Source: an uncultured Elusimicrobia bacterium
Lineage (GTDB): Bacteria; Elusimicrobiota; Elusimicrobia; FEN-1173
Length of the DNA stretch: 64,000 nucleotides
Assembly: GCA_964482515.1 (NCBI GenBank)
Contig: CAYZXT010000006.1
Coordinates: 28,521-92,520 of the forward strand
Reading direction: 5' to 3'
The notes under the pieces were generated by a model that worked only from the letters and a program-made list of their open reading frames with translations, searched no databases and was not told the DNA's origin. Shown one piece after another: positions 3,172 through 44,116 of this stretch. The first letter of the stretch is position 1; each line of letters begins with the position of its first letter. The position numbers and the translations under genes were made by a program.

Positions 3172-4529
<1,358 letters not shown>

Positions 4530-6284: not shown

Positions 6285-9200
6285 TTAAGCGGAGGTCAAG
6301 AAAAGGCCAAGAGCCTTCAGTCCTTCTTGCAGGCTCTCAACCAGGCGGAAAATCGGCACCAGGACCACAACGTCCTTGTAGACGCCCAATTCGACCTGGT
6401 CCGAAGCGAAAATCACCGCATTTTTGGGATCCAATTGCCCCGCCTTTTCCAAGGCCGACAACAGCCTGTCCATCCTCAAGATCGCTCCGTCCAGAAGCGA
6501 CACTTCCGCGCGGGCCGAAGCAATGAGCGAGGGTCTCTCGCCGGCCAGGATGATCCGGATGTTGCCTTGGCGCAACAGGACGTCGTAGTCGCGCATGAAT
6601 TCCTCCCGGTCCCTGCCCGCATTGAAGGCTGCGTCCGCCGACATGCCTTGCCAGAAATCCGGAGAGGCTTGGCGCGGATCGCGCACGATCAGGGTCAAGG
6701 TGTTCGCCGTATCCCCGGCCGTTCCCGCATTATTGGCGACGAAGGCCGCCAGCAGTCCCGACACGGAGGCGCGCGCCGCGCCCTTCTTCATCACATCCGC
6801 CGGAACTTCAGCGAAGACGTCTTTGCCGCCCCTCATCCGCGCGGAAACTTTCGTGAAGACGACGCGTCCGGCGTATGCGGCCAGAATGTCACTCCGGAAG
6901 GTTTCATGGCCCCGCGGCGACCAAGCATCGCCCGGCGCGTTGTCGCCCAAAGACTCCAAAGCCCGCCCCAGGACATAAGCGGCCCCCCGGTCCCCGCCCC
7001 TTGCCGATTCCCGCGCCAAACCCTTGGTCAAGGCCCCGCGCAGAGCCGCCGGGTCGGGCGTTCCGTCCACAAAAGCGTTGCTGGCCAGTCTGATGTGAAT
7101 CCGCGGCAGGCCCAGGGCGTCCACCCCGAAATTCCGCGCCGGAGCGATGCCGCGCAGCCAGACGCGGGCCCGGTCGCGGAACCCCGACTCCTTCACATGC
7201 CAAGAATCATCGACGGCCACAGGGACCGGAACAACGGAAACCTCCGAAACCGAATCTTGCCGGGCGGATAGGATCGCGCGGAACGCCGCGGACAGAAGAG
7301 CGGAGAAGACCATCGCCAGAACAATCCCGCCGGCCACGCCGCCCGCAAGAGACCCCGCAAGGAAACCCAAAGATACCGGCAGGACCTGCGCCGCGAAATA
7401 GGCCCACCGCTCGCTCACCACGCCCAAGCCGTGCAGCGCCTCGTGCCCGGGCACGCCCAGGATATAAAGGCCGGCGCGGGACAACACCTTGAAAACGGGG
7501 TTTGAATGATAGACGAAATGGGCGAGGGAAGGATTCAGGACTAGCGCGTGTGTGTTCTTTTCAAATTCCAATAAATCGACGCCGGGCTCAACGCGGACCG
7601 AGCGGAACCCGAACAGGGGCGGCGCGCGACCGTCGGGGGTTTCATAGGCCGCTCCCGAACGCGCAGCCGCCGCCAAAACCAATCGGAGAATCCCCATCAG
7701 GACCAGCCCCGCCAGGGGCCAAGCCGCCGCCGCGCCCAGAGAGCTGGCCGCAAAACCGAAGGACGCGGCCAAAAACTGGGCGGACACCAGGAACGCCGCG
7801 GCCGCCACGCCGAACAACGCCGCCGCCCACAGCCCCTGCCGCCAGGTTTCCCGGGACACGGCCCTGCGCTCGATGTCCTCAAACAGCCTGTCATAAGCAT
7901 CCGACTCTCCTTCCGCTTCGAACCAATCGCGAACTTTTTTCAACGCGGCGGAACGATCCACCAGCGTTTCCAAAAGCCTATTCAGCAATTCGCTCCTTGG
8001 TCCATGGGCCGTCGGTTCCGATTGAGCGTCCCTCTCGCGCGATGAATACGCCTTCGCGGCGTCCTCATAACCCATTATGTCCGAAACTTTCCCATCATCG
8101 CCCACGAAGTACACTTGCACATACTCCGGAACCCGACATTTCAAAATAAAGTCCAACATGGCCTTTTTGGGAAACGCAGCATTCACTTTAATCGTGCACG
8201 GGACCGTGATCCCCGTGGTCAACTCGTTTAGGACGCGATGGATTATCAACCATTCCGATAGACCTTCTAAATTTATACTAATTACGGATGAATTATCCTC
8301 GACCCGCGTTTCCTCCTTCGACAACGATCTCATAAGGCCGCGAAGAGTTCCCATCATCTCCTCTGTAGGATTGGTTGGTTCACCAAATTTTCCGGACAAC
8401 GCCCAGGCATGGTCGTATTGCTTGGACCCGCTATCAACTATCAAGTCCTTTGGATTCGGATGGTGGAGGAACAAATTGACGATCATCGCCTCGGGAAATT
8501 GGCCGTCAGAGACAAAGACTTTATGCAGGGCCCGCAACCCAAAAAGAGGAGACAAATCCTTCACCCGGCTGGCCTCCAAGTGAAGTATCCCCAGACTGGG
8601 CAAGGACCCCATGCCTTCGAGGGGTTCCTGTCTTTGTCCCACATTGACCAGCAACCCGAATACATTTTTTTCCACCGTGGCTGAAGGGCCAAACAGGTCC
8701 CTCGCCCGCGTTACTTGGCTTTCGAGAGTGGGGAAGCGATCCTCAGCGGCCGGGGCCGGCGTCGCAATGGGCCCCATATCGGCGAACTCTTCCGGGTGCG
8801 CGCGGCGATAAGCGACAGCCTCGGGATAGGCTATTGTTCTGAACGATTTAAAAAATCCGATCTTGACGGCCTCGGGTCGAGGGGAACTTAAAATGATCCT
8901 CGACAGCACGGCTTCGGAAAATTGCCCTTCTTCGATAACTATTTTTAAATTCCTTACGTTAAGGTATTGAACCATTTTCAGCATGTCGGAACCCTTTATG
9001 CTCGCTCCGACAAAAAAAGTAAATTCCCCGAAGGATGACGGGTGAATGCTGCTCTCATTGGCGGCTGCGGGCCCGACTATTGCTTTCAGGTCATTCGACA
9101 ATTCCGCCGCAATCACAGAATCATTGTATGACGGAAAGATATGATCCATGCGATACGTCTTCTTACCTTTTCCCGATCTGGAAATTTCAGCAATAAAAGC

Positions 9201-12200
9201 CTTCGGCGCAGGACTATAATCCTGATAAAAACTCCTGATATCCTTTTTACGAAATTTCCCCTCTGGAATACTCATGGTTTTCAGCCCTCGTAATCCACTG
9301 AAAACCCTCAAGTCGGAAGGGCCATCCTCCTTAATAATGATCGATTCGATGCTCGGGCACTTCCTCCAAAGGACGTCCCAGGAAACCGCATAGTCCCGGT
9401 CAAGCATTAACTCCAGGGGACCATCATCACGCAAATGAACTTGATTTTCGCCGAAGGTGTCAACGAGAATCCGCCGCTGCTCCTCGATCGTGGGGAAGGG
9501 GTCCGGCGTATCTGCAGGCTGGACAGTCCGCTGCGCGGCGGGCGGCGTTGTCCCGGGCAACGCCATGAGGGAGAACTGCTTTGGGTGCGCGCGGTAATAC
9601 GCGACAGCCTCGGAATAACTCATTGAACGAGACTCCCCCTCATCGGATGAAAAGATAAAATGAACGTTCTCGGGCACGGGGGAAGTTAAAATAAAAAAGG
9701 TCATGAAAAATTCGTCGATTTGAAATCCTTCAGACATCAGAAAGACTTCTCTCATTTCAGAAAAGCCCGTCAGTACCCTCAATTCATCGACGCCCAGCCC
9801 TTGAGAAAGGCGAATGCGTAATTGCCACATATCCTGCATAAACTCCGCTGTCACAGAACTCATCATGTTGTGTCGCCCGAGTTTTTCCCTGATTATCGCC
9901 CTGACTTCCTTGAAGCCGGACCCTGGAATGAAGTCCGCCGCCGAAAACCATTTCATGCCTCCAGACGGATTGTCTGAATAAATACGGATCCTTCCAGAGT
10001 TTTCAGCTTCGCGATAAAACCTTTCAAGTTCCACTCGATGAAACCTCCCGGCTGGAAGCTGGATATTGCGCAGACCCCTTATCCCTTCATAAAAGTTAAT
10101 ACTGAGGGTGCCGTTTTCCCCGACAATTATCGTCCTAATGCTCGGGCAATGCTTCCAAAGGGATTCACACTCCCTATAAGGAAATAAATCTCTATCATCC
10201 ACAGTTAACTCCAAATCCCCGTTCCTATCCACCTTCACTTTTTCGGGCCCGAAGATATCAATGAGCGCTTCACGCTGCTCCTCGATCGCGGGGAAGGGGT
10301 CCGGCGTATCAGCAGGCTGGACAGTCCGCTGCGCGGCGGGCGGCGTTGCCCCGGGCAACGTGACGGTGAACTCCTCCGGGTGCGCGCGGCAATAGGCGAC
10401 AGCCTTGGAATAATCCATAAAACGGGGGGTCTCCCCTTGCATTATAATCTCCTGAATCTCCTCAATCGAGACGCCCTCGGGAAAAGGAGCGCTCAGAACG
10501 ATTCGGGCCATGTCGGCATCCGTAAATTGATCATGATCCACAAATATCAGGATACTCGCTCGACGAGAGTATTCCGTCATTTTCATTAAGTCGGGAACCG
10601 TCGCAACCTTCGTAGGTTTAATCTCATACTTACGAGATACCCCCAGACGAACATAAATATCACGCGTCAAGTGGGGCGGGACGAATTCTCGGCACGCCTC
10701 TTCCATCTCGGATATTAAATTTTCGTTGCTCAATCCAGGGGTGAAGGTGCTCGCCGAATAACTTTGTCTTACTATTTCTTCATCCCACACATGAACGACA
10801 ATTCGCATGGGATCATTTTCATTCCCAAAAAAAAGGCCGACGTCGTCATCAGAAAATTTTCCCGGTGGAATAAAAATGGTTCTCAGCCCTCTTAATCCAT
10901 TGAAAATCCTCAAGTCGGAAGGGCCATCCTCCCTGATAATGATCGATTCGATGCTCGGGCACTTCTTCCAAAGGGCGTCCCAAGAAACCTCGTAGTCCCG
11001 GTCAAGCGTTAGCCCCAGGTTACCGTGGAGAAGCAAACGAACTTGATTTTCGCCGAAGGTCTCAACAAGAATCCGCCGCTGCTCCTCGATCGTGGGGAAG
11101 TGACCGGAGGCATCCAATACATTATCGGGATAAACAGAATCAACCGGCGCCTCCTTCAAAACGGGCGCCCGTTCCCTGTCGCGGCGGGCGACGGCGTAAA
11201 TGTAAGCCGCTTCCACGCGGGACTGCAGTTCCCGCGCGCTCATGATGATGTAAGGCGCTTCTTTCAGATAGGCGGCCGCCTGGGGCTCGTCCAATGTCCC
11301 GGAAACAACAACCACCTCGAACCCCCTGTCCTTGAGGAAATGGACGAACTCGCCGGCGATGAGATTGCCCCCGTTGGCCGGCAGGCCGTGAACGAGCAAC
11401 GGCGGCCGGGTCGAAGCGGTGGGCATGCCACCGCGGCGGAACCCCCGCAAGGGATTGCGCAGGAACTTGGGGAGATAGAGCGTTCCGGTCCCGGGCGGGC
11501 CGAACTCCCGGCCCGGAGTCGCACGCCGCTGCACGAAAGCGGAAGCTTCCGCGTCAAGGAGGGATGAAACCGTCGTGCTTAATTCCTTCATTTTTGAATA
11601 TCGGGACTCCTCACTCAGAACGCTGGGGACAGGACGCGCCGATACGGATTCAGAGATCTGGACATCGTTATTGTCGTCGCGAGCCTTCGATTCATGAGCT
11701 CCCTCAATTCCATCGTATCGGGAGCCGACCGTTTCCGAGGCAACCCGACCAAACAATCCCGCCAGCCGACCCATTTGCGATATCCGGATCCGCCCAAGGA
11801 ACCCCAAAAATCGGGTCAACCGAGAATCTTCGGTTGAGACCCCTTCTGCCCTGGCCGCCGACAACTTGATCCCGCCATAAACCATGGACGCCAATAAACT
11901 GAGTCCGACAATAATAACCAGCGGAAGATAATTCGGCATTCCACGCAACAGCTCGGGTTCAGGAATTCTGGGAATCATTGCCGGAAGCGCCGAAGATCCC
12001 GAATTCGCGTGAACAACAAGAAGAGCCAGGATTCCCGAAGCCAAAAGGACCCCCGCGGCCAATGCCAGCCGCCTCATCCGAAATCGCGACCCGGCCGGCG
12101 CTTTATTCGATTTCAATTTAGCTTGCGCGATGGCCAATATCTTCGCTTTCCTCGCCGTCAAATCCTTGTCTCCGAGAAATCCCAGGGCCGTCAGAATCGA

Positions 12201-15200
12201 CCGGGGCGCCTTATTGTCGGTGAGCTGCGCGATTATTTCCCGAAGGCGCTCTTCGGAGGCCAGGGGCAAGTCATCTTCCATCAAACCGAGCTCATCGCTC
12301 AAACTCTTTAATATTTCGTTGCGCTGATCCTGCAAATCCTCAACGACGTCCTCCAGCGGCTCCTCTGGAACCGCCCGTTCCTCCATCTCGCGCGGCGGGC
12401 CGGACAGGTCCACCTCCCCGATACGACCAAGGACTTTCCCAACGTCAACACTCCCCGGCCGTGGCAAAACCGATTTTTCCTTGGGAGAACGAACCGGGAC
12501 GGCACCAAGGCTTAGGAACTCACCGTCCAATTTGATCCTCTGCATGGCTTTCAGGGCAAGGTATTGCCGGTAAAGAATTTCATCCTCCTCCAGGGTCTCC
12601 GGGATACCGTTTTGAAAAATCTCATCCACAACGTCCAAATGCCGCAGGGCCAAGGCAAACGGGTTGAGGTTTACTTCCCCATACCGCTCCAACCAAGCCG
12701 ACGCGGCCGCTTCCAATTGCGTTCGCGATATTTCCTTCCTTCCGTAGGCGATCAGGGCCAGTTGGAATATTTTCTTCGGCGCCAGGGAAAACAGCCCCTT
12801 CCAGTCACCGGCAATCCCCCTCTCCAAGTCGCGCTGAAAATAGACCGACTCATGGTCATTGTCTTGCGTTATGCTTCCGGGGAAATGTTGCCGCATTGCC
12901 CTTTTGTGACGCAGATCCTCCAAATCTTGATACACATCCTCAAAGGGGTCCGCCGGGGCCTGCAACCCCGCGAGCGAAAGAAAAAAATCCGGCGCCGAAG
13001 TGGGGGTAAGCCCCGCGAAATCCCGAGTGAATAACCCATGTCCGGCTTCATGCTCCAGGGTGTTCAACCAATCTTGGCCATCGAACTGGTCCTCCCTAAA
13101 AGCGATGTCCACCTTCTGCGCTTTGTAGGTCCCAGCTGCGGACTGCCCCGCGGGCTTGAGGCTGATTGTCACCGGCCGTTGGTGGACAGGAAGGATGAAT
13201 TGGGCGATGCGGCCGATGGCCTTCACTTTGTCCAGGCCGCTTCTGAACTCCAGGGAAGCAAGCGCCTTCCGGCCGGGCAATTCTTGCCCCCTCAGCATCC
13301 TCCGCAGATAGATGGGGCCGTACACCCTCTCCACGGCCTCTTCCGCCGAAACGCCCGACGCCGCCACGAGCAGGGCCCGCTTGAATTCCCGCGGCGTGGG
13401 CCGCTCCCGAGACCGCGGCAGGGCGTTCTGTATCCAAAGGTGCGCGCGGACGATGTAAGCCATGTCCTCGTCCGACAGGGCCGGGGCCTTCGTCCCGAAT
13501 TCCGTGACGATGTCCAAAGCGTATTCCGATAAGTCATCCTTGTCGTAATCCATCTCGCGGCGGAAGATCACCCGGTTCTGCAAGGCCGTGGAAAGCCTTT
13601 CGCGGCCGCTGAAGTCGGCCCCGTTGATCGTGGCGATGAACGCAAAACCCTTCGCGTCGGTGTTATCGTCGGTCAGCACGTCGTTCAGCTTCCCTTCCAA
13701 ATAGCCGCTGGGCAATACATCCAACTCGCTGACCACTAGAACGACCCCGTTCTCCTTGGCCCAAACTATGGCCTTCTCAAGCTCGTCGAACCGCGGCGAG
13801 GCGTTGATGTGGCAAAAGCTGCGCGGGCCCGGCGCGGCCGCCCCCGCCTTGACCGCCTCATAACCGCTCGACTCCAGAACCCGCACCACGGTCACGTCCT
13901 TGCCGCGGCCGGAGGCTCCCTCCAAAATCATTCCCCGCTTTCCCGCCGCAAGCCCGTTCCGTTTCATACGATATTCCCGCATGATGAGGAAATCTCCCAC
14001 CGCCGCGGCCAACCTCATCGTGGTGCGCGATAGGGTAAGGGCCCTCGACCTATACAATTGGGCCCCCTCGTTGCGCAGATCCTCTATCCAGGCGTTTTGG
14101 AGAGCCTCCGCGTCCACCGCGAATTTCAGGCGGAGCGCGTGCCGGAGCGCGACGCGGCCCTCCGGACTCAAGCTCGGCGAGAACATTTCCCACGCCGCAA
14201 GGAGCGCTTCTTCCACGATATTGCCGGATCCGCTCAGCACCTGCGCCCGGGCGGACAGTTCCTGGAGGTCGCGCAAAGAAATTCCCTGTCCCTCCTCCCA
14301 CCCCGCCACCCGGCGAACGGTCTCAAATACCCCGAGCAGCAGGGCCCGCAAGGCCGCCGCGTTCGGCGCATCCGGCGACACGTATTCTTCGAGCCTTTGC
14401 CGGAAAAACGCCTCGTCGAATTCAGGGAAGGCGACGGTGGGGACGTGCGGGGCGAGGAAATCCTGATACTTTCTGTCCTGCAGGGTTTCCTGGTTCCCGG
14501 TGAAAACGACCTTCTTGCCCTCCATATCGATCTTGCGCCCTTCGATCCACATGTAGGGGGTTTCCCCTTCTCCCACGAACAGCCCCCCGAAGAACCGCCA
14601 AAAATCCGGCCGCGCCAGGTTCGCTTCGTCCAGGACCAGCAGCGCCGGCCCATCGTGCAAAGCCCAGCGCGTGATGTCGGCGAACGCGGAGGCCCTGCCG
14701 GTCTCATCGTCGTTCGAGTCCTGTTCCTGGGCGTCCACCCCGATCGTCACGGGCCCGAACATCCGCAGCCCCAGCGCGTCCGCCAAACCTTTTGCCGCAA
14801 AGCTTTTTCCCGTCCCGGGAGACCCTTTCAGGAACACCGCCGGGGATTTTGCCAATATTCTCCGCACCCGCCCCAAACGTTTATCCCAACTTTCCTCGAC
14901 CGGGCCGGCCTTGTCGTTGATGGAAGGAGCTTGATCAACGGACGCGTTCGCCTTTCGGAAAAGGGCGCGGTAGAAACCCTCCCGGTCATCGCCCAGGTGC
15001 GCCGCGATCAGCGCGTCCTGAATCAGCTCGAGCGCCCTCCCGGCGCCCGCGCGATCAAAACTTTCGGGCACGCCGGCTTCGTCCAACAAATCCAGGCTGA
15101 GGGTATCCGCGAATTCCCAAAAACGGTCCTTCCATGTGGCGGGAGCGACGATCTTGTTCATCGCCGCTTTCAGTTTCGGCCCATGAATGCTCCTCCCAGT

Positions 15201-18200
15201 CAGCCCCGCCTCCTTCGGCCGAAATGTCCGCCGCGCCGCCGTCCGCAGAAACGCGGCCACGTTCGGATCGTCCGCGTAATCGTCAAGATAAACGTCCTCA
15301 AAGGCCCGCATCCAATCCAGCGTGCCATCGGGGTTTCGAGCCTGGCGGCACAGGAGCCGGAGGCGTCCCAGGCTGAAATCCGCCCGAGCCGGATAGAGCC
15401 CGCGCCGCGCCGGCGGAGGGACCGTCTCGAAAGCCCTTCTCAAGGAGAGCACCTTCTCAATATCGCTTTCCGTGAGAGCTCCACTGAATTCGCGCTTCAA
15501 TTCCTCCACTATGTCCCGCACGGAAATGTCCAACACGGCGCGGTGAAGAACCGAGACGCCGGCGCCGCTCCCGATATGAGAAAGAAGGATCAAGCGTCCC
15601 GTTAAAACGTTTTCCCCTTTGCCGGCGAAGGGACGGACCTCGCCGTTCACCACGAGATAGGGATTTTCATGCAAAGCCGTTTCCAACTGGCGCAGGAGAT
15701 CCGGATTGGATTCCATCCCCGCCAAAACGACGGTTTCTCCCCGTTCCAAGGCCTCCAACACCTGCCTCTTGACCGCCCGCAAACGCCCCCCCGGCAACAG
15801 CTCGCTCGCCATCGATAGATCGTCCAGGATGGTCGCCGGCGTGACCGGATAAACAAGGGGGGGCTGGCCGTTCCGTTCGGAGACGTCCCGCATGATCCGC
15901 GCCAACAGGCCGGACGGGTCCGATCCTTCAACGAGCGACACCCGCCGGTCCCGCGCCATTTCCCACGACTCCGGATCCGGGGCCCTGGTCCGGCGGACCG
16001 CCGGCAGCATTCCACGATAACGCAACGGGACCTCCACGCCGACGCCCAATTCAATTTCCAATTCGCCGCCCATATGCAAAAGACGGTGCCACAGCGACTC
16101 CGGAATTTCCGGATCGGTTATAAGGACCCGGAGACGCCCTCCGTCCGCGCCCATCCGCTCCAGCAATCCCGCGCCCTGGGACAACGTCCCCTGGGAATCG
16201 ATGCGGGTGAACTCAAACAGCTGGTGCTGCGTTTCCCGGTTCAAGACCCACGCGCGCTCCGCCGGCCAGGCGGTCTCGCCCGCCGGCACGACCCGTTTAT
16301 TCTCCAAGGCGCGCCGCCCGTAGCCGCCCTCCGCCCAATGGACGGAAAAACCTTCCCGCGCCGCCACCCATTTTCCGTTGGAAAGGATCCCGCCGTTCAA
16401 GAGGGCCTGCCGGACCATGTGGGACAACCGGGTGTTGGGGATTCCCTGCTCATCTCGCCACACGCCCCCTTGGATCAAGAGGGGCCGCCCTTCCCTCATG
16501 GCCCGGACGAGTGCGCCCTCTTCCCAGCGCACGCTTCCGTTGGGCAGAAGCCGGTAGCGCGCGACCAGCGCATCCTTAATATCGATGTCGTCGGACTCGA
16601 AAAGTTCCGCGCGCAGGCCGTTGAAAGCCTCCGGATCGTCGACCTGGGACAAACCTTCCAGCGGATCCGCGTAATCCGCGTCCGCTTGGAATTCCCCGGT
16701 CAGGGAGCGTGAATAAAAATCAACCGAAAATTCACGCAGCTGGTCCTCCCGCACCGCCCCAACGATGCGGAGCGACGGAGAGGCCTTAACGCCCAAATAC
16801 TCCGGAGAGTCCCCGAACAGCTGATTGAATCCCGCCACGGTCTTTGGGTCGGAATTCGTGTAGTCCAGGAACAACACGCCGCCCCGCTCGATCAATTGAA
16901 GCAAGGGGCTTTTCGCCTCCCCAAACCGGCCGTTTATCACGCGCGCGGGATTGAGCAAATCATCCAAATCGGTGTCATCCCGCAGGGTCAGCCGCAAATA
17001 CGGAATGTTTCCGTTCGCGGCCACGATTTCCCTTAGCCGCACATCCAATGCCTCCACATCCCGGGGCGTATTCACGAAGGTCAACCCGCGACCTTCGTTC
17101 AATAGATCGGTCAGGCTCGGATCGGCCCACGGCGAACCCATCGTCATCGGGAAACGGCGGAATATTTTGTTCCACCCCGTGTGGACGGCAACGGCCAGAA
17201 CAAAGCCGATCACCATGGCCAGGAGGGAGTAAAGCGGTCCATCGAACCCGGACAGGAACAACCGGGGCGCGGCGAGGGCGGCGAGGTTGAATAAGACAAC
17301 GGCGAAAAGGCGGACGGCGAAATCAACGGGGGATTTATTTTCATGGCGGAAAACGAAAGACGCCTGGTGCGCGGCGTAATAAACCGCCGCCACCAGCCAG
17401 AACGACATGACTATCGCCAAAAGCAGCGGATTCGCCTCCAGCAACACAGCCTTCAAATTCCATGCCGCCATCAGGATGAGGCCAGGCGCGCGGCCCATCC
17501 AAAAGGCGCGCCAGCGCGTCAACGTCGGCTGCCCCCGCGCTTCGATTTCCTTCCGCGCCGAAGCGGCGGGAGCCAGGCCCGCTTCTTCAATCACGGAATA
17601 GCCAAGCAGCTTGTGACTGATCATAGGATTCCTCAGCCACTCCGGCGCATGCTTGACCGCATTTTCGTAATAGGCCTTCGTGCTCGACAGGATCAGCGAG
17701 CGGCTTCCCCACAGGTTTTTCCACCAAGGAACGCTCAACCTCCGCGGCGGACTGAACCTCACCGACTGAAAGGAATCAGCGCCTCCCACGGGGAATTCGG
17801 CGACCACCGACGGCGCGCCCGGTCGCGCAATCAACAAGCCGTTCTCTCCGAACCCGATACTCCACCCCCACCACGCCTTGGCTTTCTCAATCAGCGCGCG
17901 AAGATTTTTACGCCTTTCACCTGAGGGAAGTTTGTTTTCCCTCCACCGCGCCTGGCTGCCCTCAACAGTGGCGGCCAAGGCGTTCGCCTTCACGGCGAAA
18001 TCATGGGCCTGGATCCTTCGCTGGAAGGGTTCGGCCAACCGCCGAATCAGCCCCGGCGAGGTAAACCGTGCGAAGATCAGGGAGATGGGTTCTCCGGCGA
18101 AAATTTTCTCGATGGGGAGTGGATCGCGGGAGAAGATGTCCATGTAATTTTTGGCCTGATCGATGTTTTCCACCTTTGGCGTGACGACGACGTAAGACGC

Positions 18201-19853
18201 ATTCTTCCGCCGCCAAAGCGCCGTCATACCCTCGGTGTGGAACCCGCCGGTCACCAGGACGGCGGAGGTTTGCTTTTCTTCTTTCATTTTCCTGAGCAGG
18301 TTTTCGGTGAGGGCTTCATTGCGGGCCAAAGCCAGACGGCAGAAATCTTCGAACGGTTTCAGCAATTCCGCGCGTATGGCGGGAAAAGCCGGAGAGCCCG
18401 ACGACAGAGAGCGGGCCCGGTCCGCCATGTTGAGGATCAACGGGCGTCGTTCCGTATAATCGGCCCAATGCCGCGGCGTCATTTCCGTGCGGAGCAATTT
18501 CGTCAGCAGGGCCTGGTCGCGTCCCAACCCCGCCAGTTCCTTTTGCGCCGGCTCAAAAGTGAGCCCGGCTTCGACTGTTTTTTCCATCCGTTCCAACTCG
18601 TCCAACAACTTGTCCCGGTTTATGCGCTCCGCGGACTGGACGTAGGTCATATAATCGGACAACTGCGGATAGCCGGTCAGGTCGATGTTCTTTTCCCGGC
18701 AAAGATCGCGCATATACGCGTAATATTCCCCGTAGCTCCTTTGACCGGCGCGGTACTCGACGCTCGCCCGCACCAGTTCATCCAGGGACTCCCGGCTCAG
18801 TCGCGATACCAGGCGATCGATCAAATCAAGCCGCTCGCGTTCCACCTTTTTGAAATCCAGTTTTTTCTCCCACCGGATCGCCCGGGACAACAGGGCCACG
18901 TTGGGATAGGCCCCGGCATCCGCGCGGGAGGAAAGAAAATCCACGTAAGCGCCCAGCCCTGTTTTACCCGCCTGGAAAGTTTGATAGAAGCGGTCGAACT
19001 CCTTGAGCCCGGGCGAATAAATTTTTTCTTTCAGACCGCTCACGGCCTCGGCCAGACCCGAGAGGAACTCCTCCGCTTCCCTCCGGCGGTCCTGGGCCGA
19101 GAGCACCGCGCGGGTGTTGTCGGCGTAAAGGTCGCCCGTCTCCACGCCCCAGAGGAGCGGCGCGACCTCCGACACCAACCCCAAATATTCCGCACCGCCC
19201 ACGTATCCTTCCTCCAGGAAATAGTCCGCGAGCTGTTGGTTCATTTCTTTCCCGGCCTCGGGCAGGGCCTTGTATTTTTCCATCTCGAAGTAGCCCTCGG
19301 CGCCCTCCAACCCCACGAGCTTCACCCCGCGCCCATCCTTCAGTCCCTGCAGGATGCGGGCGATGTTCTTTTGCGCGTCGTAGGCGCCATGGATGTCTTG
19401 AATGTGGATGATGAGGGGCGAATCCGATTTAGCCAAATGGATTTCCCGGACGCTTCCATAGGGCAAGACCAATCGGGAAAGCCAAGCGGGAACAATCCCG
19501 TTCTTGGCCCACTTCACGTTTTCAGAGAGGTCATGGGCGGACAAGGGAGCCAGAGATGGGGCGAGGGTGGATCCGTTCAGGGTTTCGGGAAGTCCCAGCG
19601 GGATTTGGCCGGTGGGAAGCTGGGCGAGGAGTTGATAGTCCCGGGATGAAAGACTGTTCGCGCGGCCCGGGTTATTTTGCGCCGAAGAGCGGGATACGGA
19701 TCTTCGTTCCTCCCAAAAGTTCGCCTCGGCCAAGGGCGATGCGACCGTTGAATAAAATAACAAGGCGCAGAGGGCGGCGGCGAGGCTCTTTTTGCTCGGT
19801 CCTTGCGCGCTGAAAGGCCTGAAAATCGAGCGGGTTCGGCGGATTATATCCAT
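6285..19853 (-). CDS. giant (4,522 aa) polytopic membrane protein: conserved N-domain, multi-AAA+ block, two HExxH motifs, 4 tandem modules, C-terminal domain
   Basis: ATG 19853 to TAA 6285-6287, uninterrupted. Composition is protein-like throughout, while overlapping ORFs are R/P/G/A-rich shadows. Motifs read directly: GSPGTGKS (14802-14825) with LLVLDEANLA (~14611-14645); GASGRGKD (13896-13919) with VVLVVSELD (~13715-13750); IATINGADFSGRERLSTALQNRVIF (~13560-13640); HEAGH (13038-13052); HEALH (7431-7445). Hydrophobic clusters lie near 17150-17480, 11860-12075 and 7270-7850. Confidence 0.9.
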   Translation of the reverse strand: MDIIRRTRSIFRPFSAQGPSKKSLAAALCALLFYSTVASPLAEANFWEERRSVSRSSAQNNPGRANSLSSRDYQLLAQLPTGQIPLGLPETLNGSTLAPSLAPLSAHDLSENVKWAKNGIVPAWLSRLVLPYGSVREIHLAKSDSPLIIHIQDIHGAYDAQKNIARILQGLKDGRGVKLVGLEGAEGYFEMEKYKALPEAGKEMNQQLADYFLEEGYVGGAEYLGLVSEVAPLLWGVETGDLYADNTRAVLSAQDRRREAEEFLSGLAEAVSGLKEKIYSPGLKEFDRFYQTFQAGKTGLGAYVDFLSSRADAGAYPNVALLSRAIRWEKKLDFKKVERERLDLIDRLVSRLSRESLDELVRASVEYRAGQRSYGEYYAYMRDLCREKNIDLTGYPQLSDYMTYVQSAERINRDKLLDELERMEKTVEAGLTFEPAQKELAGLGRDQALLTKLLRTEMTPRHWADYTERRPLILNMADRARSLSSGSPAFPAIRAELLKPFEDFCRLALARNEALTENLLRKMKEEKQTSAVLVTGGFHTEGMTALWRRKNASYVVVTPKVENIDQAKNYMDIFSRDPLPIEKIFAGEPISLIFARFTSPGLIRRLAEPFQRRIQAHDFAVKANALAATVEGSQARWRENKLPSGERRKNLRALIEKAKAWWGWSIGFGENGLLIARPGAPSVVAEFPVGGADSFQSVRFSPPRRLSVPWWKNLWGSRSLILSSTKAYYENAVKHAPEWLRNPMISHKLLGYSVIEEAGLAPAASARKEIEARGQPTLTRWRAFWMGRAPGLILMAAWNLKAVLLEANPLLLAIVMSFWLVAAVYYAAHQASFVFRHENKSPVDFAVRLFAVVLFNLAALAAPRLFLSGFDGPLYSLLAMVIGFVLAVAVHTGWNKIFRRFPMTMGSPWADPSLTDLLNEGRGLTFVNTPRDVEALDVRLREIVAANGNIPYLRLTLRDDTDLDDLLNPARVINGRFGEAKSPLLQLIERGGVLFLDYTNSDPKTVAGFNQLFGDSPEYLGVKASPSLRIVGAVREDQLREFSVDFYSRSLTGEFQADADYADPLEGLSQVDDPEAFNGLRAELFESDDIDIKDALVARYRLLPNGSVRWEEGALVRAMREGRPLLIQGGVWRDEQGIPNTRLSHMVRQALLNGGILSNGKWVAAREGFSVHWAEGGYGRRALENKRVVPAGETAWPAERAWVLNRETQHQLFEFTRIDSQGTLSQGAGLLERMGADGGRLRVLITDPEIPESLWHRLLHMGGELEIELGVGVEVPLRYRGMLPAVRRTRAPDPESWEMARDRRVSLVEGSDPSGLLARIMRDVSERNGQPPLVYPVTPATILDDLSMASELLPGGRLRAVKRQVLEALERGETVVLAGMESNPDLLRQLETALHENPYLVVNGEVRPFAGKGENVLTGRLILLSHIGSGAGVSVLHRAVLDISVRDIVEELKREFSGALTESDIEKVLSLRRAFETVPPPARRGLYPARADFSLGRLRLLCRQARNPDGTLDWMRAFEDVYLDDYADDPNVAAFLRTAARRTFRPKEAGLTGRSIHGPKLKAAMNKIVAPATWKDRFWEFADTLSLDLLDEAGVPESFDRAGAGRALELIQDALIAAHLGDDREGFYRALFRKANASVDQAPSINDKAGPVEESWDKRLGRVRRILAKSPAVFLKGSPGTGKSFAAKGLADALGLRMFGPVTIGVDAQEQDSNDDETGRASAFADITRWALHDGPALLVLDEANLARPDFWRFFGGLFVGEGETPYMWIEGRKIDMEGKKVVFTGNQETLQDRKYQDFLAPHVPTVAFPEFDEAFFRQRLEEYVSPDAPNAAALRALLLGVFETVRRVAGWEEGQGISLRDLQELSARAQVLSGSGNIVEEALLAAWEMFSPSLSPEGRVALRHALRLKFAVDAEALQNAWIEDLRNEGAQLYRSRALTLSRTTMRLAAAVGDFLIMREYRMKRNGLAAGKRGMILEGASGRGKDVTVVRVLESSGYEAVKAGAAAPGPRSFCHINASPRFDELEKAIVWAKENGVVLVVSELDVLPSGYLEGKLNDVLTDDNTDAKGFAFIATINGADFSGRERLSTALQNRVIFRREMDYDKDDLSEYALDIVTEFGTKAPALSDEDMAYIVRAHLWIQNALPRSRERPTPREFKRALLVAASGVSAEEAVERVYGPIYLRRMLRGQELPGRKALASLEFRSGLDKVKAIGRIAQFILPVHQRPVTISLKPAGQSAAGTYKAQKVDIAFREDQFDGQDWLNTLEHEAGHGLFTRDFAGLTPTSAPDFFLSLAGLQAPADPFEDVYQDLEDLRHKRAMRQHFPGSITQDNDHESVYFQRDLERGIAGDWKGLFSLAPKKIFQLALIAYGRKEISRTQLEAAASAWLERYGEVNLNPFALALRHLDVVDEIFQNGIPETLEEDEILYRQYLALKAMQRIKLDGEFLSLGAVPVRSPKEKSVLPRPGSVDVGKVLGRIGEVDLSGPPREMEERAVPEEPLEDVVEDLQDQRNEILKSLSDELGLMEDDLPLASEERLREIIAQLTDNKAPRSILTALGFLGDKDLTARKAKILAIAQAKLKSNKAPAGSRFRMRRLALAAGVLLASGILALLVVHANSGSSALPAMIPRIPEPELLRGMPNYLPLVIIVGLSLLASMVYGGIKLSAARAEGVSTEDSRLTRFLGFLGRIRISQMGRLAGLFGRVASETVGSRYDGIEGAHESKARDDNNDVQISESVSARPVPSVLSEESRYSKMKELSTTVSSLLDAEASAFVQRRATPGREFGPPGTGTLYLPKFLRNPLRGFRRGGMPTASTRPPLLVHGLPANGGNLIAGEFVHFLKDRGFEVVVVSGTLDEPQAAAYLKEAPYIIMSARELQSRVEAAYIYAVARRDRERAPVLKEAPVDSVYPDNVLDASGHFPTIEEQRRILVETFGENQVRLLLHGNLGLTLDRDYEVSWDALWKKCPSIESIIIREDGPSDLRIFNGLRGLRTIFIPPGKFSDDDVGLFFGNENDPMRIVVHVWDEEIVRQSYSASTFTPGLSNENLISEMEEACREFVPPHLTRDIYVRLGVSRKYEIKPTKVATVPDLMKMTEYSRRASILIFVDHDQFTDADMARIVLSAPFPEGVSIEEIQEIIMQGETPRFMDYSKAVAYCRAHPEEFTVTLPGATPPAAQRTVQPADTPDPFPAIEEQREALIDIFGPEKVKVDRNGDLELTVDDRDLFPYRECESLWKHCPSIRTIIVGENGTLSINFYEGIRGLRNIQLPAGRFHRVELERFYREAENSGRIRIYSDNPSGGMKWFSAADFIPGSGFKEVRAIIREKLGRHNMMSSVTAEFMQDMWQLRIRLSQGLGVDELRVLTGFSEMREVFLMSEGFQIDEFFMTFFILTSPVPENVHFIFSSDEGESRSMSYSEAVAYYRAHPKQFSLMALPGTTPPAAQRTVQPADTPDPFPTIEEQRRILVDTFGENQVHLRDDGPLELMLDRDYAVSWDVLWRKCPSIESIIIKEDGPSDLRVFSGLRGLKTMSIPEGKFRKKDIRSFYQDYSPAPKAFIAEISRSGKGKKTYRMDHIFPSYNDSVIAAELSNDLKAIVGPAAANESSIHPSSFGEFTFFVGASIKGSDMLKMVQYLNVRNLKIVIEEGQFSEAVLSRIILSSPRPEAVKIGFFKSFRTIAYPEAVAYRRAHPEEFADMGPIATPAPAAEDRFPTLESQVTRARDLFGPSATVEKNVFGLLVNVGQRQEPLEGMGSLPSLGILHLEASRVKDLSPLFGLRALHKVFVSDGQFPEAMIVNLFLHHPNPKDLIVDSGSKQYDHAWALSGKFGEPTNPTEEMMGTLRGLMRSLSKEETRVEDNSSVISINLEGLSEWLIIHRVLNELTTGITVPCTIKVNAAFPKKAMLDFILKCRVPEYVQVYFVGDDGKVSDIMGYEDAAKAYSSRERDAQSEPTAHGPRSELLNRLLETLVDRSAALKKVRDWFEAEGESDAYDRLFEDIERRAVSRETWRQGLWAAALFGVAAAAFLVSAQFLAASFGFAASSLGAAAAWPLAGLVLMGILRLVLAAAARSGAAYETPDGRAPPLFGFRSVRVEPGVDLLEFEKNTHALVLNPSLAHFVYHSNPVFKVLSRAGLYILGVPGHEALHGLGVVSERWAYFAAQVLPVSLGFLAGSLAGGVAGGIVLAMVFSALLSAAFRAILSARQDSVSEVSVVPVPVAVDDSWHVKESGFRDRARVWLRGIAPARNFGVDALGLPRIHIRLASNAFVDGTPDPAALRGALTKGLARESARGGDRGAAYVLGRALESLGDNAPGDAWSPRGHETFRSDILAAYAGRVVFTKVSARMRGGKDVFAEVPADVMKKGAARASVSGLLAAFVANNAGTAGDTANTLTLIVRDPRQASPDFWQGMSADAAFNAGRDREEFMRDYDVLLRQGNIRIILAGERPSLIASARAEVSLLDGAILRMDRLLSALEKAGQLDPKNAVIFASDQVELGVYKDVVVLVPIFRLVESLQEGLKALGLFLTSA
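8040..11100 (-). repeat. four in-frame tandem protein modules (~805, 798, 762 and ~700 nt) inside giant ORF 1
   Basis: Module starts are marked by (P/H/R)FPT(I/L)E(E/S)Q at nt ~11100, 10295, 9497 and 8735. Each has two LRR-like halves and ends in (Y/M)xEAVAYxRAHPEEF-type linkers. Hand-counted DNA identity between copies: 85/88 (9475-9562 vs 10273-10360), 58/60 (9439-9498 vs 11041-11100), 115/125 (9281-9405 vs 10883-11007). Confidence 0.85.
13560..17150 (-). other. multi-AAA+ (AAA_5/MoxR/midasin-like) block, two units with intact Walker A/B and upstream degenerate units
   Basis: There are two P-loop/Walker-B pairs (see the CDS entry), each followed by an ATxN...GR..L..AL.NR-type segment. Upstream units lack the P-loop Lys but keep Walker-B-like strands (GGVLFLDYTNSDPKTVAGFNQLF; GETVVLAGMESNPDLLRQLETAL). 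Confidence 0.6.
18085..19722 (-). other. conserved N-terminal domain of giant ORF 1 (paralogous to 44230-45870)
   Basis: Alignable by eye block by block with giant ORF 2: FWEERR/FWQDRR; IHIQDIHGAYDAQKNI/VLVQDAHEIYSAQLNI; LVGLEGAEG/LIGLEGAAG; LWGVETGDLY/MLGVETPTLY; LDFKKVERERLDLIDRLVSRL/LDFKAVESERLQLVKILSHRL; VLVTGGFHTEG...VVVTPKV/VIVVGGFHAPA...VTVTPKV; PLPIEKIFAGE/VPLEKMFLGE. Confidence 0.85.
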
Positions 19854-39845: not shown

Positions 39846-40250
39846 TCACTCCCAAATGGGCGCGTGCCACAGCGCCTCCATGAGCCAGCGCACCTCGGAA
39901 TCGCACAGCACCATCTCCGAGTAATCCGGCTTTCCCTCATCGTTCATGTAAGAAAGCGCCACGGTGACGTCCCGGTGTTTTTCCGCGTTCTTGTTCTTGG
40001 ACCAATCCGCGGACACGCACAGCAGGCCGTAGGGGACGTCCAAATGGGACCGCCACGCGGCTTCCTGGCAGGGGCCCTGGCAGGTCAGGCCCTTATGACG
40101 GGCCGACTCTTGGCCCTTCCGCGGGGCCTTGCCGGTCATCCCGGCGGCCTCGCAGATGGAAGCCAAAAAACTGTCCAGTTTCTTTTTGCTGATACGGGGA
40201 CCGACTTTCCGCTTTCCTTTGTTCTTTCGGTCTTCGTGTTCCTGTTCCAT
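39846..40250 (-). CDS. hypothetical protein
   Basis: 134-aa ORF with protein-like composition, 4 nt upstream of the SEC-C gene. No motif recognised. Confidence 0.4.
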   Translation of the reverse strand: MEQEHEDRKNKGKRKVGPRISKKKLDSFLASICEAAGMTGKAPRKGQESARHKGLTCQGPCQEAAWRSHLDVPYGLLCVSADWSKNKNAEKHRDVTVALSYMNDEGKPDYSEMVLCDSEVRWLMEALWHAPIWE

Positions 40251-44083: not shown

Positions 44084-44116
44084 TTGCACATCCAACTCAG
44101 CAAGGGGAATGAACCA

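What the first reader, a model, noticed from the sequence alone, without database searches (positions are those of the whole stretch)
8040..11100. Four in-frame tandem modules of ~255-270 aa with LRR-like halves
Module starts are marked by FPT(I/L)E(E/S)Q at ~11100, 10295, 9497 and 8735.

Each module contains two leucine-rich segments, for example CPSIESIIIREDGPSDLRIFNGLRGLRTIFIPPGKF. Each ends in xEAVAYxRAHPEEF plus a Pro/Ala/Thr linker (TPPAAQRTVQPADTPDPFP).

Modules 1 and 3 are much closer to each other than to modules 2 and 4. The array lies between TM segments and is probably surface or periplasm exposed, so a ligand- or partner-binding function is plausible.
Basis: seen in the sequence. 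Interest (0 to 1): 0.65.

Follow-up and report, generated by a model that had tools for sequence, protein, structure and literature searches.

The report
Tandem capped-LRR modules in giant protein
A 4,522-residue membrane protein of an uncultivated bacterium carries four in-frame ~265-residue modules built from very divergent leucine-rich-repeat units; they most likely form a protein-binding arm attached to an ATPase core, so this is a real but fairly ordinary kind of repeat array in an undescribed family of giant proteins.

Summary
The four markers lie at 11099, 10295, 9497 and 8735, inside one ORF (6285-19853, minus strand, 4,522 aa). Modules M1-M3 match each other at E 2e-66 to 4e-34. M4 is remote but collinear (E 7e-6 against an M1-M3 profile).

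Each module has two halves. The N-half is an N-cap, two 22-residue LRRs and a C-cap. It is homologous (hhalign 97%, E 9e-11) to the repeated "capped LRR unit" of three other giant proteins from metagenomes. The C-half looks like a degenerate second unit, but the evidence is weak.

No protein other than this one among 1.84 billion cluster representatives matches a whole module, and Pfam does not detect it.

In a 40%-GC metagenomic genome, a homologue of this protein's AAA_5/HExxH core (34% identity over about 1,600 aa) is followed directly by a separate gene for a capped-LRR array. Core and array are therefore a conserved pair.

The array forms a low-GC3 island (0.55-0.60, against 0.73-0.76 in the rest of the gene). 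It is mosaic, with near-identical junctions and unrelated centres.

A two-helix hairpin puts the array on the same membrane side as the ATPase core. Periplasmic exposure is therefore unsupported, though not excluded.

Verdict: a new variant of a known kind, of moderate interest.

The parts
6285..19853 (-). Single 4,522-aa ORF that contains the array. Order of parts: signal/anchor, EreA/ChaN-like N-domain, TM cluster, AAA_5+HExxH core, TM hairpin, pre-array domain, four modules, post-array helix, two TM hairpins, C-terminal domain.
10296..11099 (-). Module M1 (aa 2919-3186). N-half aa 2919-3040 (N-cap FPTIEEQRRILVETFG, two LRRs CPSIESIIIREDGPSDLRIFNG / LRGLRTIFIPPGKF, C-cap SDDDVGLFFGNENDPMRIVVHV). 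C-half aa 3041-3165. P/A/T linker aa 3166-3186.
9498..10295 (-). Module M2 (aa 3187-3452).
8736..9497 (-). Module M3 (aa 3453-3706). Its first ~90 aa are 67-84% identical to M1; its centre is unrelated.
7929..8735 (-). Module M4 (aa 3707 to about 3975; the recognisable module core ends near aa 3936 = window 8046). It is the most divergent copy but has the most canonical C-cap (FPEAMIVNLFLHHPNPKDLIVD).
10273..10360 (-). M1/M2 junction. This 88 nt is 97% identical to the M2/M3 junction (9475-9562). The two copies are 798 nt (266 codons) apart, so in frame. The longest exact run is 37 nt.
9475..9562 (-). M2/M3 junction, the second copy of the 88-nt repeat.
11124..11435 (-). Pre-array alpha/beta domain (aa 2807-2910). 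It is similar to the N-terminus of the stand-alone array protein P0006 (Smith-Waterman z 7.6; 0 of 300 shuffles reach the score). Its GC3 is host-like (0.81 for codons 2801-2900).
7854..7985 (-). Post-array helix (aa 3957-4000). It is similar to the segment that follows the last unit of P0006 (z 7.1).
11865..12071 (-). TM hairpin upstream of the array (aa 2595-2615 and 2644-2663, with a 28-aa loop). There are 5 K/R in the 15 residues before the first helix, and K2663 plus 2 K/R (with 3 D/E) in the 15 after the second.
7656..7835 (-). TM hairpin downstream of the array (aa 4007-4066).
12390..17105 (-). Conserved core (aa 917-2488). It has two P-loops (GSPGTGKS at 14802-14825, GASGRGKD at 13896-13919), a Pfam AAA_5 match, and HEAGH at 13038-13052. 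It is 34% identical to the 2,202-aa protein encoded directly upstream of the array gene in L006.
18078..19556 (-). N-terminal domain (aa ~100-592) with an EreA/ChaN/TraB-like fold and a helical insert. It is shared with P0002, P0034, Elusimicrobia MAG proteins and the paralogue at 44084-49825.
44084..49825 (+). Paralogous 1,913-aa ORF. It begins with the same N-domain (35% identity over 589 aa, E 1.5e-84) and has no LRR modules.

Best explanation
SHOWN
- Window 7929-11099 encodes residues 2919-3975 of one 4,522-aa multi-pass membrane protein. It is a genuine tandem array of four ~265-aa supermodules.
- The N-half of each supermodule is a 'capped mini-LRR' unit. It has an N-cap helix plus hairpin (FPTIEEQ...), two 22-residue LRR_4-type repeats, and a C-cap helix and strand (xSxxxΦxxΦFxxxPNxxxΦxV).
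- The C-half looks like a second, degenerate unit ending in AVAYxRAHP. The evidence for that is weak.
- The same unit is the repeated building block of a few other giant proteins from uncultivated bacteria. Those proteins also share other parts of this one.
- In one 40%-GC genome, a homologue of the AAA_5/HExxH core and a capped-LRR array protein are adjacent genes in the same order as here. Here they are fused.
- The array is a low-GC3 island within the gene.

INFERRED
- The array is the multivalent protein-binding arm, for a partner or a substrate, of the AAA_5/HExxH core.
- It sits on the same side of the membrane as that core.
- It arose by old duplications. Module junctions are still being homogenised by gene conversion, while module centres have diverged beyond recognition.
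- The array interior may have been replaced from a lower-GC relative.
For: Array and repeats
- Repeat statistics.

LRR nature
- The four-module profile, run against 1.84 billion cluster representatives, hits only itself over the full length. Otherwise it hits profile positions ~44-106 of LRR proteins many times per protein.
- Those hits include Roco proteins with Pfam LRR_4 at E 2e-156.
- Weak PDB sequence hits go to the Roco LRR and internalin B.
- hhalign of the N-half against 19 capped units of P0002/P0006 gives 97% probability, E 9.3e-11, over 72 columns.
- The C-cap HMM hits M4 at 10.8 bits, against 0.2 for the best of 200 shuffles.
- The AF2 model of M1 has pLDDT 81.7 with an alternating beta/alpha pattern. 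Strands fall on IESIII and TIFI, and helices on the cap motifs.

Same family elsewhere
- The N-domain is shared with P0002 and P0034 (E 1e-17 to 1e-21).
- The pre- and post-array flanks are shared with P0006 (z 7.6 and 7.1).

Synteny
- L006 gene 3296-9904 carries AAA_5. It matches giant aa 917-1998 (E 2e-167) and 2011-2488 (E 4e-74). The array protein P0052 follows it directly.
- The Walker A motifs and HExxH are invariant between the two cores.

Topology
- The hairpin and its flanking charges.

Mosaic and composition
-.
Against: - No experiment and no characterised homologue exist, so binding is inferred only from the LRR fold class.
- No module reaches a Pfam LRR threshold.
- C-half homology to LRR units is marginal.
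- The conserved core-array pairing rests on one other locus (L005 and L006 are the same locus in two samples).
- The hydropathy-based topology is crude. The 788-893 cluster could hold 3 or 4 helices.
- Relatives have signal-peptide-like N-termini and no further TM segments. That would put an ATPase core outside the cell unless those proteins are anchored or delivered elsewhere.
Confidence: 0.6

Rival explanations
1. Surface- or periplasm-exposed adhesin or ligand-binding array. The N-terminal signal sequence exports the protein. An even number of helices at each TM cluster leaves all large domains, including the LRR array, outside. There they bind a surface ligand or another cell.
For: - The N-terminus looks like a Sec signal or anchor.
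- P0002, P0034 and L006 g2202 have signal-like N-termini and no other TM segments.
- The 788-893 cluster can be read as four helices.
- Internalin-type LRRs are classic extracellular binders, and the module profile hits internalin B weakly.
- The Omnitrophota giant-protein preprint predicts most domains of its TM-rich giants to be extracellular, while warning that such predictions are unreliable.
Against: - This would also place two P-loop ATPase domains outside the cytoplasm, where there is no ATP.
- The stand-alone array protein P0052 has no N-terminal signal sequence.
- Pfam finds no cell-wall anchor, autotransporter, T1SS or T9SS signature.
Confidence: 0.2
2. Delivered effector. The whole family consists of secreted giant effectors or toxins that act inside a host or prey cell. 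The LRR array mimics or targets host proteins, and the ATPase works in the target's cytoplasm.
For: - Signal-like N-termini are seen in the family members examined, but not in the stand-alone array protein P0052.
- Relatives fuse PPDK-like, PP2C and methyltransferase domains.
- AAA_5 and PPDK_N are listed among the domains of predatory Omnitrophota giants.
- Family members share a short C-terminal tail ending in A, which could be a sorting signal.
Against: - The window protein has about 11 hydrophobic helices spread along it, which suits an integral membrane protein better than a soluble effector.
- The genomic neighbourhood is ordinary housekeeping, with no secretion system within 64 kb.
- The top fold matches are non-toxin hydrolase-like proteins.
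Confidence: 0.12
3. Compositional insertion or artefact. The array is a recently inserted foreign cassette that is functionally irrelevant, or it results from mis-assembly or collapse of a repeat.
For: - There is a sharp low-GC island (47-54% against ~60-66%). GC3 is 0.55-0.60 against 0.73-0.76 in the rest of the gene and 0.82-0.89 in housekeeping genes.
- The nearest unit relatives come from 38-40% GC genomes.
- P0002 and P0051 are identical except for two 110-aa LRR blocks, so such arrays can vary or collapse.
Against: - About 3.2 kb of lower-GC sequence stays open and in frame within a 13.6-kb ORF.
- The modules are 31-44% identical to each other, not near-identical. The longest exact repeat is 37 nt, too short for assembly collapse.
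- The core-plus-array order is conserved in L006.
- The conserved pre- and post-array flanks have host-like GC3.
- The module model is confident.
Confidence: 0.08

Closest known systems
Bacterial 22-residue LRR domains (Pfam LRR_4; internalin and Roco-type LRRs)
   Same: The N-half of each module has two LxxLxxLxLxx...L repeats of about 22 residues. The module profile aligns with LRR_4 repeats of Roco proteins and with internalin B.
   Different: There are only two clear repeats per unit, flanked by family-specific N- and C-caps that Pfam does not model. No module reaches a Pfam LRR threshold. There is no Roc-COR, Ig-like inter-repeat, LPXTG or GW part.
Capped LRR unit arrays of the metagenomic giants P0002/P0051 (6,362/6,582 aa), P0006/P0052 (2,507/2,513 aa) and P0034 (2,636 aa)
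   Same: They share the unit grammar: an N-cap (L/F)(S/P)(F/T)xEQ helix, LRRs, and a C-cap ΦYELFxxxPNRxxLxV...W. They share an N-terminal EreA/ChaN-like domain (P0002, P0034) or the array flanks and an AAA_5 core neighbour (P0052). P0002 also has higher-order supermodules made of several capped units (read directly).
   Different: Those proteins have many canonical LRRs per unit and up to ~20 units. They have only an N-terminal hydrophobic segment (P0002, P0034) or a single C-terminal one (P0006/P0052), with no TM hairpins, and they come from 38-40% GC genomes. The window's modules are minimal (2 LRRs), paired with a degenerate second unit, and have no full-length match anywhere.
NTPase-plus-LRR sensors (NLR/STAND proteins; Roco proteins)
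   Same: The order is a P-loop NTPase region followed by a C-terminal LRR array. That suggests the LRRs act as a recognition or regulatory arm for the NTPase.
   Different: The NTPase here is AAA_5-like, not NACHT, NB-ARC or Roc. The nSTAND3 match is below threshold (E 0.073, 13 bits against a cut-off of 27). TM hairpins separate the parts. PADLOC finds no defence family.
TM-rich giant proteins of Omnitrophota ('archaeovorins') and tandem-repeat scaffold giants
   Same: They are very long, largely unannotated, with interspersed TM segments. Their domain lists include AAA_5 and PPDK_N. Their repeat architectures have diverged at the nucleotide level.
   Different: This protein is 4.5 kaa, not 7-150 kaa. 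Pfam finds no SecA_DEAD, C39 or S8 domains. There is no adjacent secretion-system locus. The nearest N-domain homologues are Elusimicrobia MAGs. LRR arrays are not mentioned in the 2026 survey. The term occurs once in the 2023 preprint, in a passage I did not read.

Membership tests
Leucine-rich repeat superfamily (LRR_4 / bacterial 22-residue type) | Tandem 20-30-residue repeats with the LxxLxLxx(N/C/T)xL core | tested here: met
   Two consecutive ~22-aa repeats occur in the N-half of every module (CPSIESIIIREDGPSDLRIFNG / LRGLRTIFIPPGKFSDDDVGLF). This is read from the alignment. Strands are predicted on IESIII and TIFI.
Leucine-rich repeat superfamily (LRR_4 / bacterial 22-residue type) | Match to a curated LRR model above its threshold | tested here: not met
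   hmmscan of each module against Pfam at E <= 10 gives no LRR family. The whole protein gives only AAA-type matches.
Leucine-rich repeat superfamily (LRR_4 / bacterial 22-residue type) | Profile-level homology to bona fide LRR proteins | tested here: met
   The module profile hits 49 LRR-containing proteins at positions ~44-106, with up to 14 stretches each. P0003 and P0004 are LRR_4 Roco proteins. hhalign against capped LRR units gives 97%, E 9.3e-11. PDB hits are the Roco LRR at E 1.2e-3 and internalin B at E 7e-3.
Leucine-rich repeat superfamily (LRR_4 / bacterial 22-residue type) | Curved beta/alpha solenoid structure | tested here: inconclusive
   [not shown]
Capped-LRR-unit giant proteins (undescribed family: P0002, P0006, P0034) | C-cap motif ΦxxΦFxxxPNxxxLxV after the last LRR, plus the N-cap (L/F)x(F/T)xEQ helix | tested here: met
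   M4 FPEAMIVNLFLHHPNPKDLIV scores 10.8 bits with a cap HMM built only from P0002/P0006, against a shuffled maximum of 0.2. The hhalign alignment covers the cap in all modules. The N-cap similarity is seen by eye only, because the N-cap HMM is not significant.
Capped-LRR-unit giant proteins (undescribed family: P0002, P0006, P0034) | Shared non-repeat parts or shared gene neighbourhood | tested here: met
   The N-domain matches P0002/P0034 at E 1e-17 to 1e-21. The flanks match P0006 at z 7.6 and 7.1. The AAA_5 core homologue lies directly upstream of P0052.
NLR / STAND NTPase sensors | NACHT, NB-ARC or another STAND NTPase module next to the repeats | tested here: not met
   Only AAA_5 passes its threshold. 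nSTAND3 is at E 0.073, 13.2 bits against a cut-off of 27.2. PADLOC gives no hit.
Roco proteins | LRR followed by Roc GTPase and COR domains | tested here: not met
   There are no Roc or COR matches in the 4,522-aa protein.
Internalins | N-terminal cap, LRR, Ig-like inter-repeat region and a cell-wall anchor (LPXTG or GW) | tested here: not met
   Pfam finds no LRR_adjacent, Ig-like or anchor domains. The only link is weak LRR-level similarity to InlB.
Omnitrophota archaeovorin-type giant proteins | Length above 7,000 aa, many TM regions, a divergent SecA_DEAD domain and an adjacent T2SS/T4P-like locus (per 10.1101/2023.11.21.568195) | tested here: not met
   The protein is 4,522 aa. TM segments are present, but there is no SecA_DEAD. 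The neighbours are PGM, enolase, GlcD/F-like and ComEC.
AAA_5 (MoxR/dynein-related) ATPases, for the upstream core | Pfam AAA_5 above its gathering score, with an intact Walker A | tested here: met
   AAA_5 is at E 3.4e-10, 40.5 bits against a cut-off of 22. GSPGTGKS and GASGRGKD are conserved with L006 g2202, which scores AAA_5 at E 6.6e-18.
EreA/ChaN/TraB (Tiki-like) superfamily, for the N-terminal domain | The alpha/beta fold with conserved His/Glu | tested here: inconclusive
   [not shown]

The most novel reading that the evidence does not exclude
The capped mini-LRR array is the exchangeable recognition arm of a previously undescribed class of modular membrane machines. The class would combine an EreA/ChaN-like head, an AAA_5 + HExxH core and an LRR array, and would occur in Elusimicrobiota-like and other uncultivated bacteria. 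The core and array can be fused or split into adjacent genes. The array interior would be swapped horizontally between conserved flanks, which would explain the low-GC3 island, and reshaped by in-frame recombination at homogenised junctions. This would retarget an ATP-driven protease or remodeller to new protein substrates or partners.
Probability: 0.2. Interest if true: 0.65.

Novelty: new variant of a known kind. Interest (0 to 1): 0.4.

Why it matters
LRR arrays are a standard way to build binding surfaces, so the array itself is not surprising. Three things add value.

1. It defines a 'capped mini-LRR' unit and a two-unit supermodule that curated domain libraries miss. This annotates about 1,050 residues of dark sequence here, and thousands more in related giant proteins.

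2. It links the array to a conserved AAA_5/HExxH core through a fusion/fission pair. That gives a testable functional coupling for a family of giant proteins with no annotation.

3. It gives a clean example of mosaic repeat evolution inside one gene: homogenised junctions, unrecognisable centres and a synonymous-site GC island.

If the recognition-arm idea holds, the family would give a handle on what TM-rich giant proteins of uncultivated bacteria do.

Tried and rejected
- Word-indexed homology search with M1 found nothing.
- The same search with core aa 917-1640 found nothing, not even the known relative. A 3,623-aa query timed out.
- Scans of GTDB genome contigs and JGI metagenome contigs found no relatives. 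I used the whole protein and the core alignment. Copy number in orthologues could therefore not be compared.
- The organism could not be named. Exact look-ups place the window's proteins on an unnamed NCBI contig of 116,168 bp, and the contig look-ups failed.
- The afdb50 fold library was unavailable.
- Foldseek against the PDB with the M1 model gave nothing meaningful.
- NCBIfam and PADLOC gave nothing for the giant protein.
- PDB sequence searches gave nothing useful for the core, the pre-array region or the C-terminal region.
- A DGR-like or templated diversification mechanism is rejected. No copy of array DNA or protein exists elsewhere in the window.
- A shared C-terminal domain among family members is rejected (Smith-Waterman z <= 2). 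Only a short terminal tail recurs.
- The N-cap HMM built from relatives does not significantly detect the window's N-caps.
- Loci around other N-domain homologues (L002-L004, L007, L008) contain no LRR modules and no AAA core.

Full report
**1. What is at the coordinates**

The finding lies inside one uninterrupted ORF on the minus strand, 6285-19853, encoding 4,522 aa. The markers FP[TA][IL]E[ES]Q sit at aa 2919, 3187, 3453 and 3707. These are window positions 11099, 10295, 9497 and 8735, exactly as reported. M2 reads FPAIEEQ.

This defines four modules:
- M1: 268 aa.
- M2: 266 aa.
- M3: 254 aa.
- M4: about 269 aa. Its recognisable core ends near aa 3936, window 8046.

**2. Is the repeat more than chance?**

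Pairwise blastp gives:
- M1-M3: 42% identity, E 1.9e-66.
- M1-M2: 35%, E 1.8e-48.
- M2-M3: 31%, E 4e-34.
- M4 against the others: 20-24%, E 6e-5 to 7e-4.

A profile of M1-M3, searched against the protein with M1-M3 masked, finds only M4 (E 6.8e-6). The match is collinear over profile positions 48-233. There are therefore four modules and no cryptic fifth.

BLOSUM autocorrelation over the array peaks at lags of 534 aa (z 8.0), 266 aa (z 5.2) and 786 aa (z 3.4). The control regions and one shuffle gave maximum z of 3.0-4.1, so the 786-aa peak is not above background.

Tandem Repeats Finder reports nothing of this period, because the copies are too diverged at the DNA level. The repeat finder recovers only the conserved parts.

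**3. Anatomy of a module**

An AlphaFold2 model of M1 has mean pLDDT 81.7 and pTM 0.56. It was built from only the four modules as its alignment. The order of elements is:
- helix 4-15;
- hairpin 20-32;
- helix 40-46;
- strand 50-55 (IESIII);
- short helix;
- strand 74-77 (TIFI);
- helix 84-91 (DDDVGLFF);
- strands 101-115;
- a second half with helices 125-147, a hairpin at 149-161, helix 168-179, strand 183-188 (SILIFV), helix 194-202 (DADMARIV), strand 210-215, and a terminal helix 230-239 (YSKAVAYCRA);
- a disordered P/A/T linker from residue 247 to the end of the module (pLDDT below 50).

The N-half therefore reads as N-cap, two ~22-residue LRRs and C-cap. The C-half has one LRR-like beta/alpha turn with a similar cap: (D/E)QF(S/T)xxxΦxxΦΦLxxPxPExVxΦ.

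Profile-profile comparison of N-halves with C-halves gives E 6e-4 but only 28% probability. An internal duplication is plausible but not proven.

**4. LRR assignment**

- Pfam finds no family in any module, even at E 10.
- An exhaustive HMMER search with the four-module profile against 1.84 billion cluster representatives returned 50 hits. The only full-length match is the protein itself (P0001).
- All other hits match profile positions ~44-106, and they do so repeatedly (2-14 stretches per protein).
- The generic hits are ordinary LRR proteins. P0003 and P0004, for example, are Roco proteins with LRR_4 at E 2e-156 and 7e-81.
- A PDB sequence search gives weak hits to the Chlorobium Roco LRR (E 1.2e-3) and to internalin B.

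The LRR call therefore rests on sequence profiles and secondary structure, not on a fold match.

**5. The real relatives**

Three of the hits are more than generic LRR proteins: P0002 (6,362 aa), P0006 (2,507 aa) and P0034 (2,636 aa).

- They are built from a repeated unit:
  - an N-cap xLSFEEQVxxVKxFLxxNG plus a hairpin;
  - a run of canonical 22-aa LRRs;
  - a C-cap VSxxxIYELFVxN(E/P)NRENLxV...ITWxDVPEEYKQQ.
- HMMER alignments place our LRR1, LRR2 and cap on the last two LRRs and the cap of these units.
- hhalign of our N-halves against 19 such units gives 97% probability, E 9.3e-11, over 72 columns.
- A cap HMM built only from the relatives hits M4 (FPEAMIVNLFLHHPNPKDLIV) at 10.8 bits, against 0.2 for the best of 200 shuffles.
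- The C-half aligns in register, but weakly (E 0.0098, probability 4%).
- P0002 also shows supermodules of several capped units repeated in tandem. For example, aa 1404-1758 and 1759-2110 each begin LTF(D/Q)EQ (read).

**6. Shared parts outside the array**

*N-terminal domain.*
- The giant's N-terminal ~570 residues match the N-termini of P0002 and P0034 (E 5e-21 and 8e-17).
- They also match 14 database proteins. The best are two Elusimicrobia MAG proteins at 44-46% identity, and one is from Omnitrophica.
- Several such N-domain proteins are clustered giants (L003, L004).
- A second ORF in this window, 44084-49825(+), 1,913 aa, begins with the same domain (35% identity, E 1.5e-84).
- H134, Q140 and E162 are invariant.

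*Pre- and post-array flanks.*
- The ~100-aa domain just before the array, and the helix just after it, resemble the N-terminus of P0006 and the segment after its last unit.
- Smith-Waterman z is 7.6 and 7.1, and 0 of 300 shuffles reach either score.

**7. Conserved pairing with an ATPase core**

- P0052 is the 90%-identity cluster mate of P0006. It lies on a 376-kb JGI contig of 40% GC, directly downstream of a 2,202-aa AAA_5 protein.
- That protein is 34.7% identical to giant aa 917-1998 (E 2e-167) and 33.5% identical to aa 2011-2488 (E 4e-74).
- Both Walker A motifs (GSPGTGKS, GxSGRGKD) and an HExxH motif (HEAGHGLFTR) are invariant between the two.
- So what is one polypeptide here (core, TM hairpin, pre-array domain, array, post-array helix) is two adjacent genes there, in the same order.
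- This fusion/fission pair is the main reason to think the array works together with the core. It rests on one independent locus, because L005 and L006 are the same locus in two samples.

**8. Topology**

Kyte-Doolittle scanning finds:
- an N-terminal hydrophobic segment (aa 23-43) preceded by six K/R;
- a cluster of three or four helices at aa 788-893;
- a two-helix hairpin at aa 2595-2615 and 2644-2663;
- two more hairpins at aa 4007-4066 and 4156-4197.

The hairpin before the array has 5 K/R in the 15 residues before its first helix. After its second helix there is K2663 plus 2 K/R, together with 3 D/E, in the next 15. By helix parity, the array is on the same side as the AAA_5 core. The ATPase argues for the cytoplasm, so 'periplasm or surface exposed' is not supported.

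Two caveats apply:
- The method is crude.
- P0002, P0034 and L006 g2202 have signal-like N-termini and no further TM segments. That leaves the extracytoplasmic and delivered-effector readings open.

**9. Evolution of the array**

- *Mosaic identity.* M1 against M3 is 67-84% identical (81-91% at the nucleotide level) over the first 90 alignment columns. It is 7-14% identical over columns 91-180, and 28-59% over columns 181-270.
- *Junctions.* The M1/M2 and M2/M3 junctions share 88 nt at 97% identity, 798 nt apart and therefore in frame. The longest exact run is 37 nt.
- *Interpretation (inferred).* This pattern fits old duplications with continuing gene conversion at the module ends. The junction repeats also give a substrate for in-frame gain or loss of M2.
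- *Copy number in a relative.* P0002 and P0051 are identical over 6,362 residues except for two 110-aa (5 x 22) LRR blocks. That is either real variation or assembly collapse. In the window, the copies are too different for collapse.
- *Composition.*
  - The array is a sharp low-GC island (47-54% against ~60-66%).
  - GC3 is 0.55-0.60 in the array, 0.73-0.76 in the rest of the gene and 0.82-0.89 in housekeeping genes.
  - The pre-array codons 2801-2900 (0.81) and the post-array codons (0.79) are host-like.
  - This could mean that the array interior was replaced from a lower-GC relative. The nearest unit relatives come from 38-40% GC genomes. This remains an inference.
- *No template copy.* No copy of the array exists elsewhere in the window, so a templated diversification system is unlikely.

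**10. Context and literature**

- The neighbouring genes are housekeeping: enolase, phosphoglucomutase, GlcD/GlcF-like, ComEC, IlvD, squalene synthase and MDH.
- There is no secretion locus and no defence family.
- Two preprints on Omnitrophota giant proteins describe TM-rich, mostly unannotated giants.
  - One lists AAA_5 and PPDK_N among their domains (10.1101/2023.11.21.568195).
  - The other defines a 'tandem-repeat scaffold' class whose nucleotide repeats have decayed (10.64898/2026.06.07.730766).
- The 2026 survey does not mention LRRs at all. In the 2023 preprint the term occurs once, in a passage I did not read. I found no description of this unit or this family.

**11. Verdict**

The LRR-like reading holds for the N-halves and is weak for the C-halves. 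The localisation claim is not supported.

The most likely role is a multivalent protein-binding arm coupled to the AAA_5/HExxH core. I put the anatomy at about 0.9 and the function at about 0.45.

It is a new variant of a known kind: a divergent LRR array in an undescribed family of modular giant proteins. Interest is moderate.

Noticed in passing
window 44084-49825 (+): A second large ORF (1,913 aa, no Pfam match) begins with the same EreA/ChaN-like N-domain as the giant (35% identity over 589 aa, E 1.5e-84). It has its own TM pairs and no LRR modules. The genome therefore carries at least two paralogous 'N-domain-headed' giants.
   Followed up: partly
[not shown]
   Followed up: partly
window 6288-6320 (-), and the C-termini of ORF 44084-49825, P0002, P0034, the L004 1,872-aa and 1,297-aa proteins, and the L002 2,650-aa protein: All these family members end in a short hydrophobic, small-residue tail terminating in A (…GLFLTSA, …IQTLIAA, …LLILAAA, …LISQMA, …FIQTFA, …AVLQSA, …ALAQAA). 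There is no wider C-terminal similarity. This could be a sorting, secretion or degradation signal.
   Followed up: no
P0002 against P0051 (aa 3446 and 3610/3720): The two proteins are 100% identical over 6,362 residues but differ by two insertions of exactly 110 aa (five 22-residue LRRs). This is either true copy-number variation or assembly collapse of near-identical LRRs.
   Followed up: partly
L006 10001-17542 and 17552-27280 (C-termini of the 2,513-aa and 3,242-aa proteins): Both proteins carry a similar C-terminal motif, L(T/I)PVIINI(I/M)P(A/I)TD(L/I)P(L/M)(I/L)LGE. In the 2,513-aa protein it is preceded by GGIDLNP. The 3,242-aa neighbour combines HEAT, PP2C and methyltransferase domains.
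   Followed up: no
window 7431-7445 (-), giant aa 4137-4141: A second HExxH motif (GVPGHEALHG) lies in the short loop between the two C-terminal TM hairpins. This layout recalls membrane-embedded metalloproteases. No family match was found.
   Followed up: no
window 7900-11200: GC3 rises and falls along the array. The 100-codon windows over the two long-linker junctions (M1/M2, M2/M3) reach 0.67-0.68 and the window over M3/M4 reaches 0.64, while module interiors drop to 0.47-0.48. The junctions are also the segments that are near-identical between modules, which is compatible with GC-biased gene conversion.
   Followed up: partly
window 40065-40137 (+): ARAGORN calls a tRNA-His with the unusual anticodon ATG. 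Rfam found no RNA family, tRNA included, at gathering threshold anywhere in the window. This is probably a false positive.
   Followed up: partly
L003 (GCA_016715645.1) and L004 (JGI 3300056625): In Elusimicrobia-type relatives the N-domain genes sit in clusters of giant genes. These include proteins with PPDK_N, PEP-utilizers and PEP-utilizers_C domains. P0002 fuses the N-domain, LRR units and a PPDK-like C-terminal region in one protein.
   Followed up: partly
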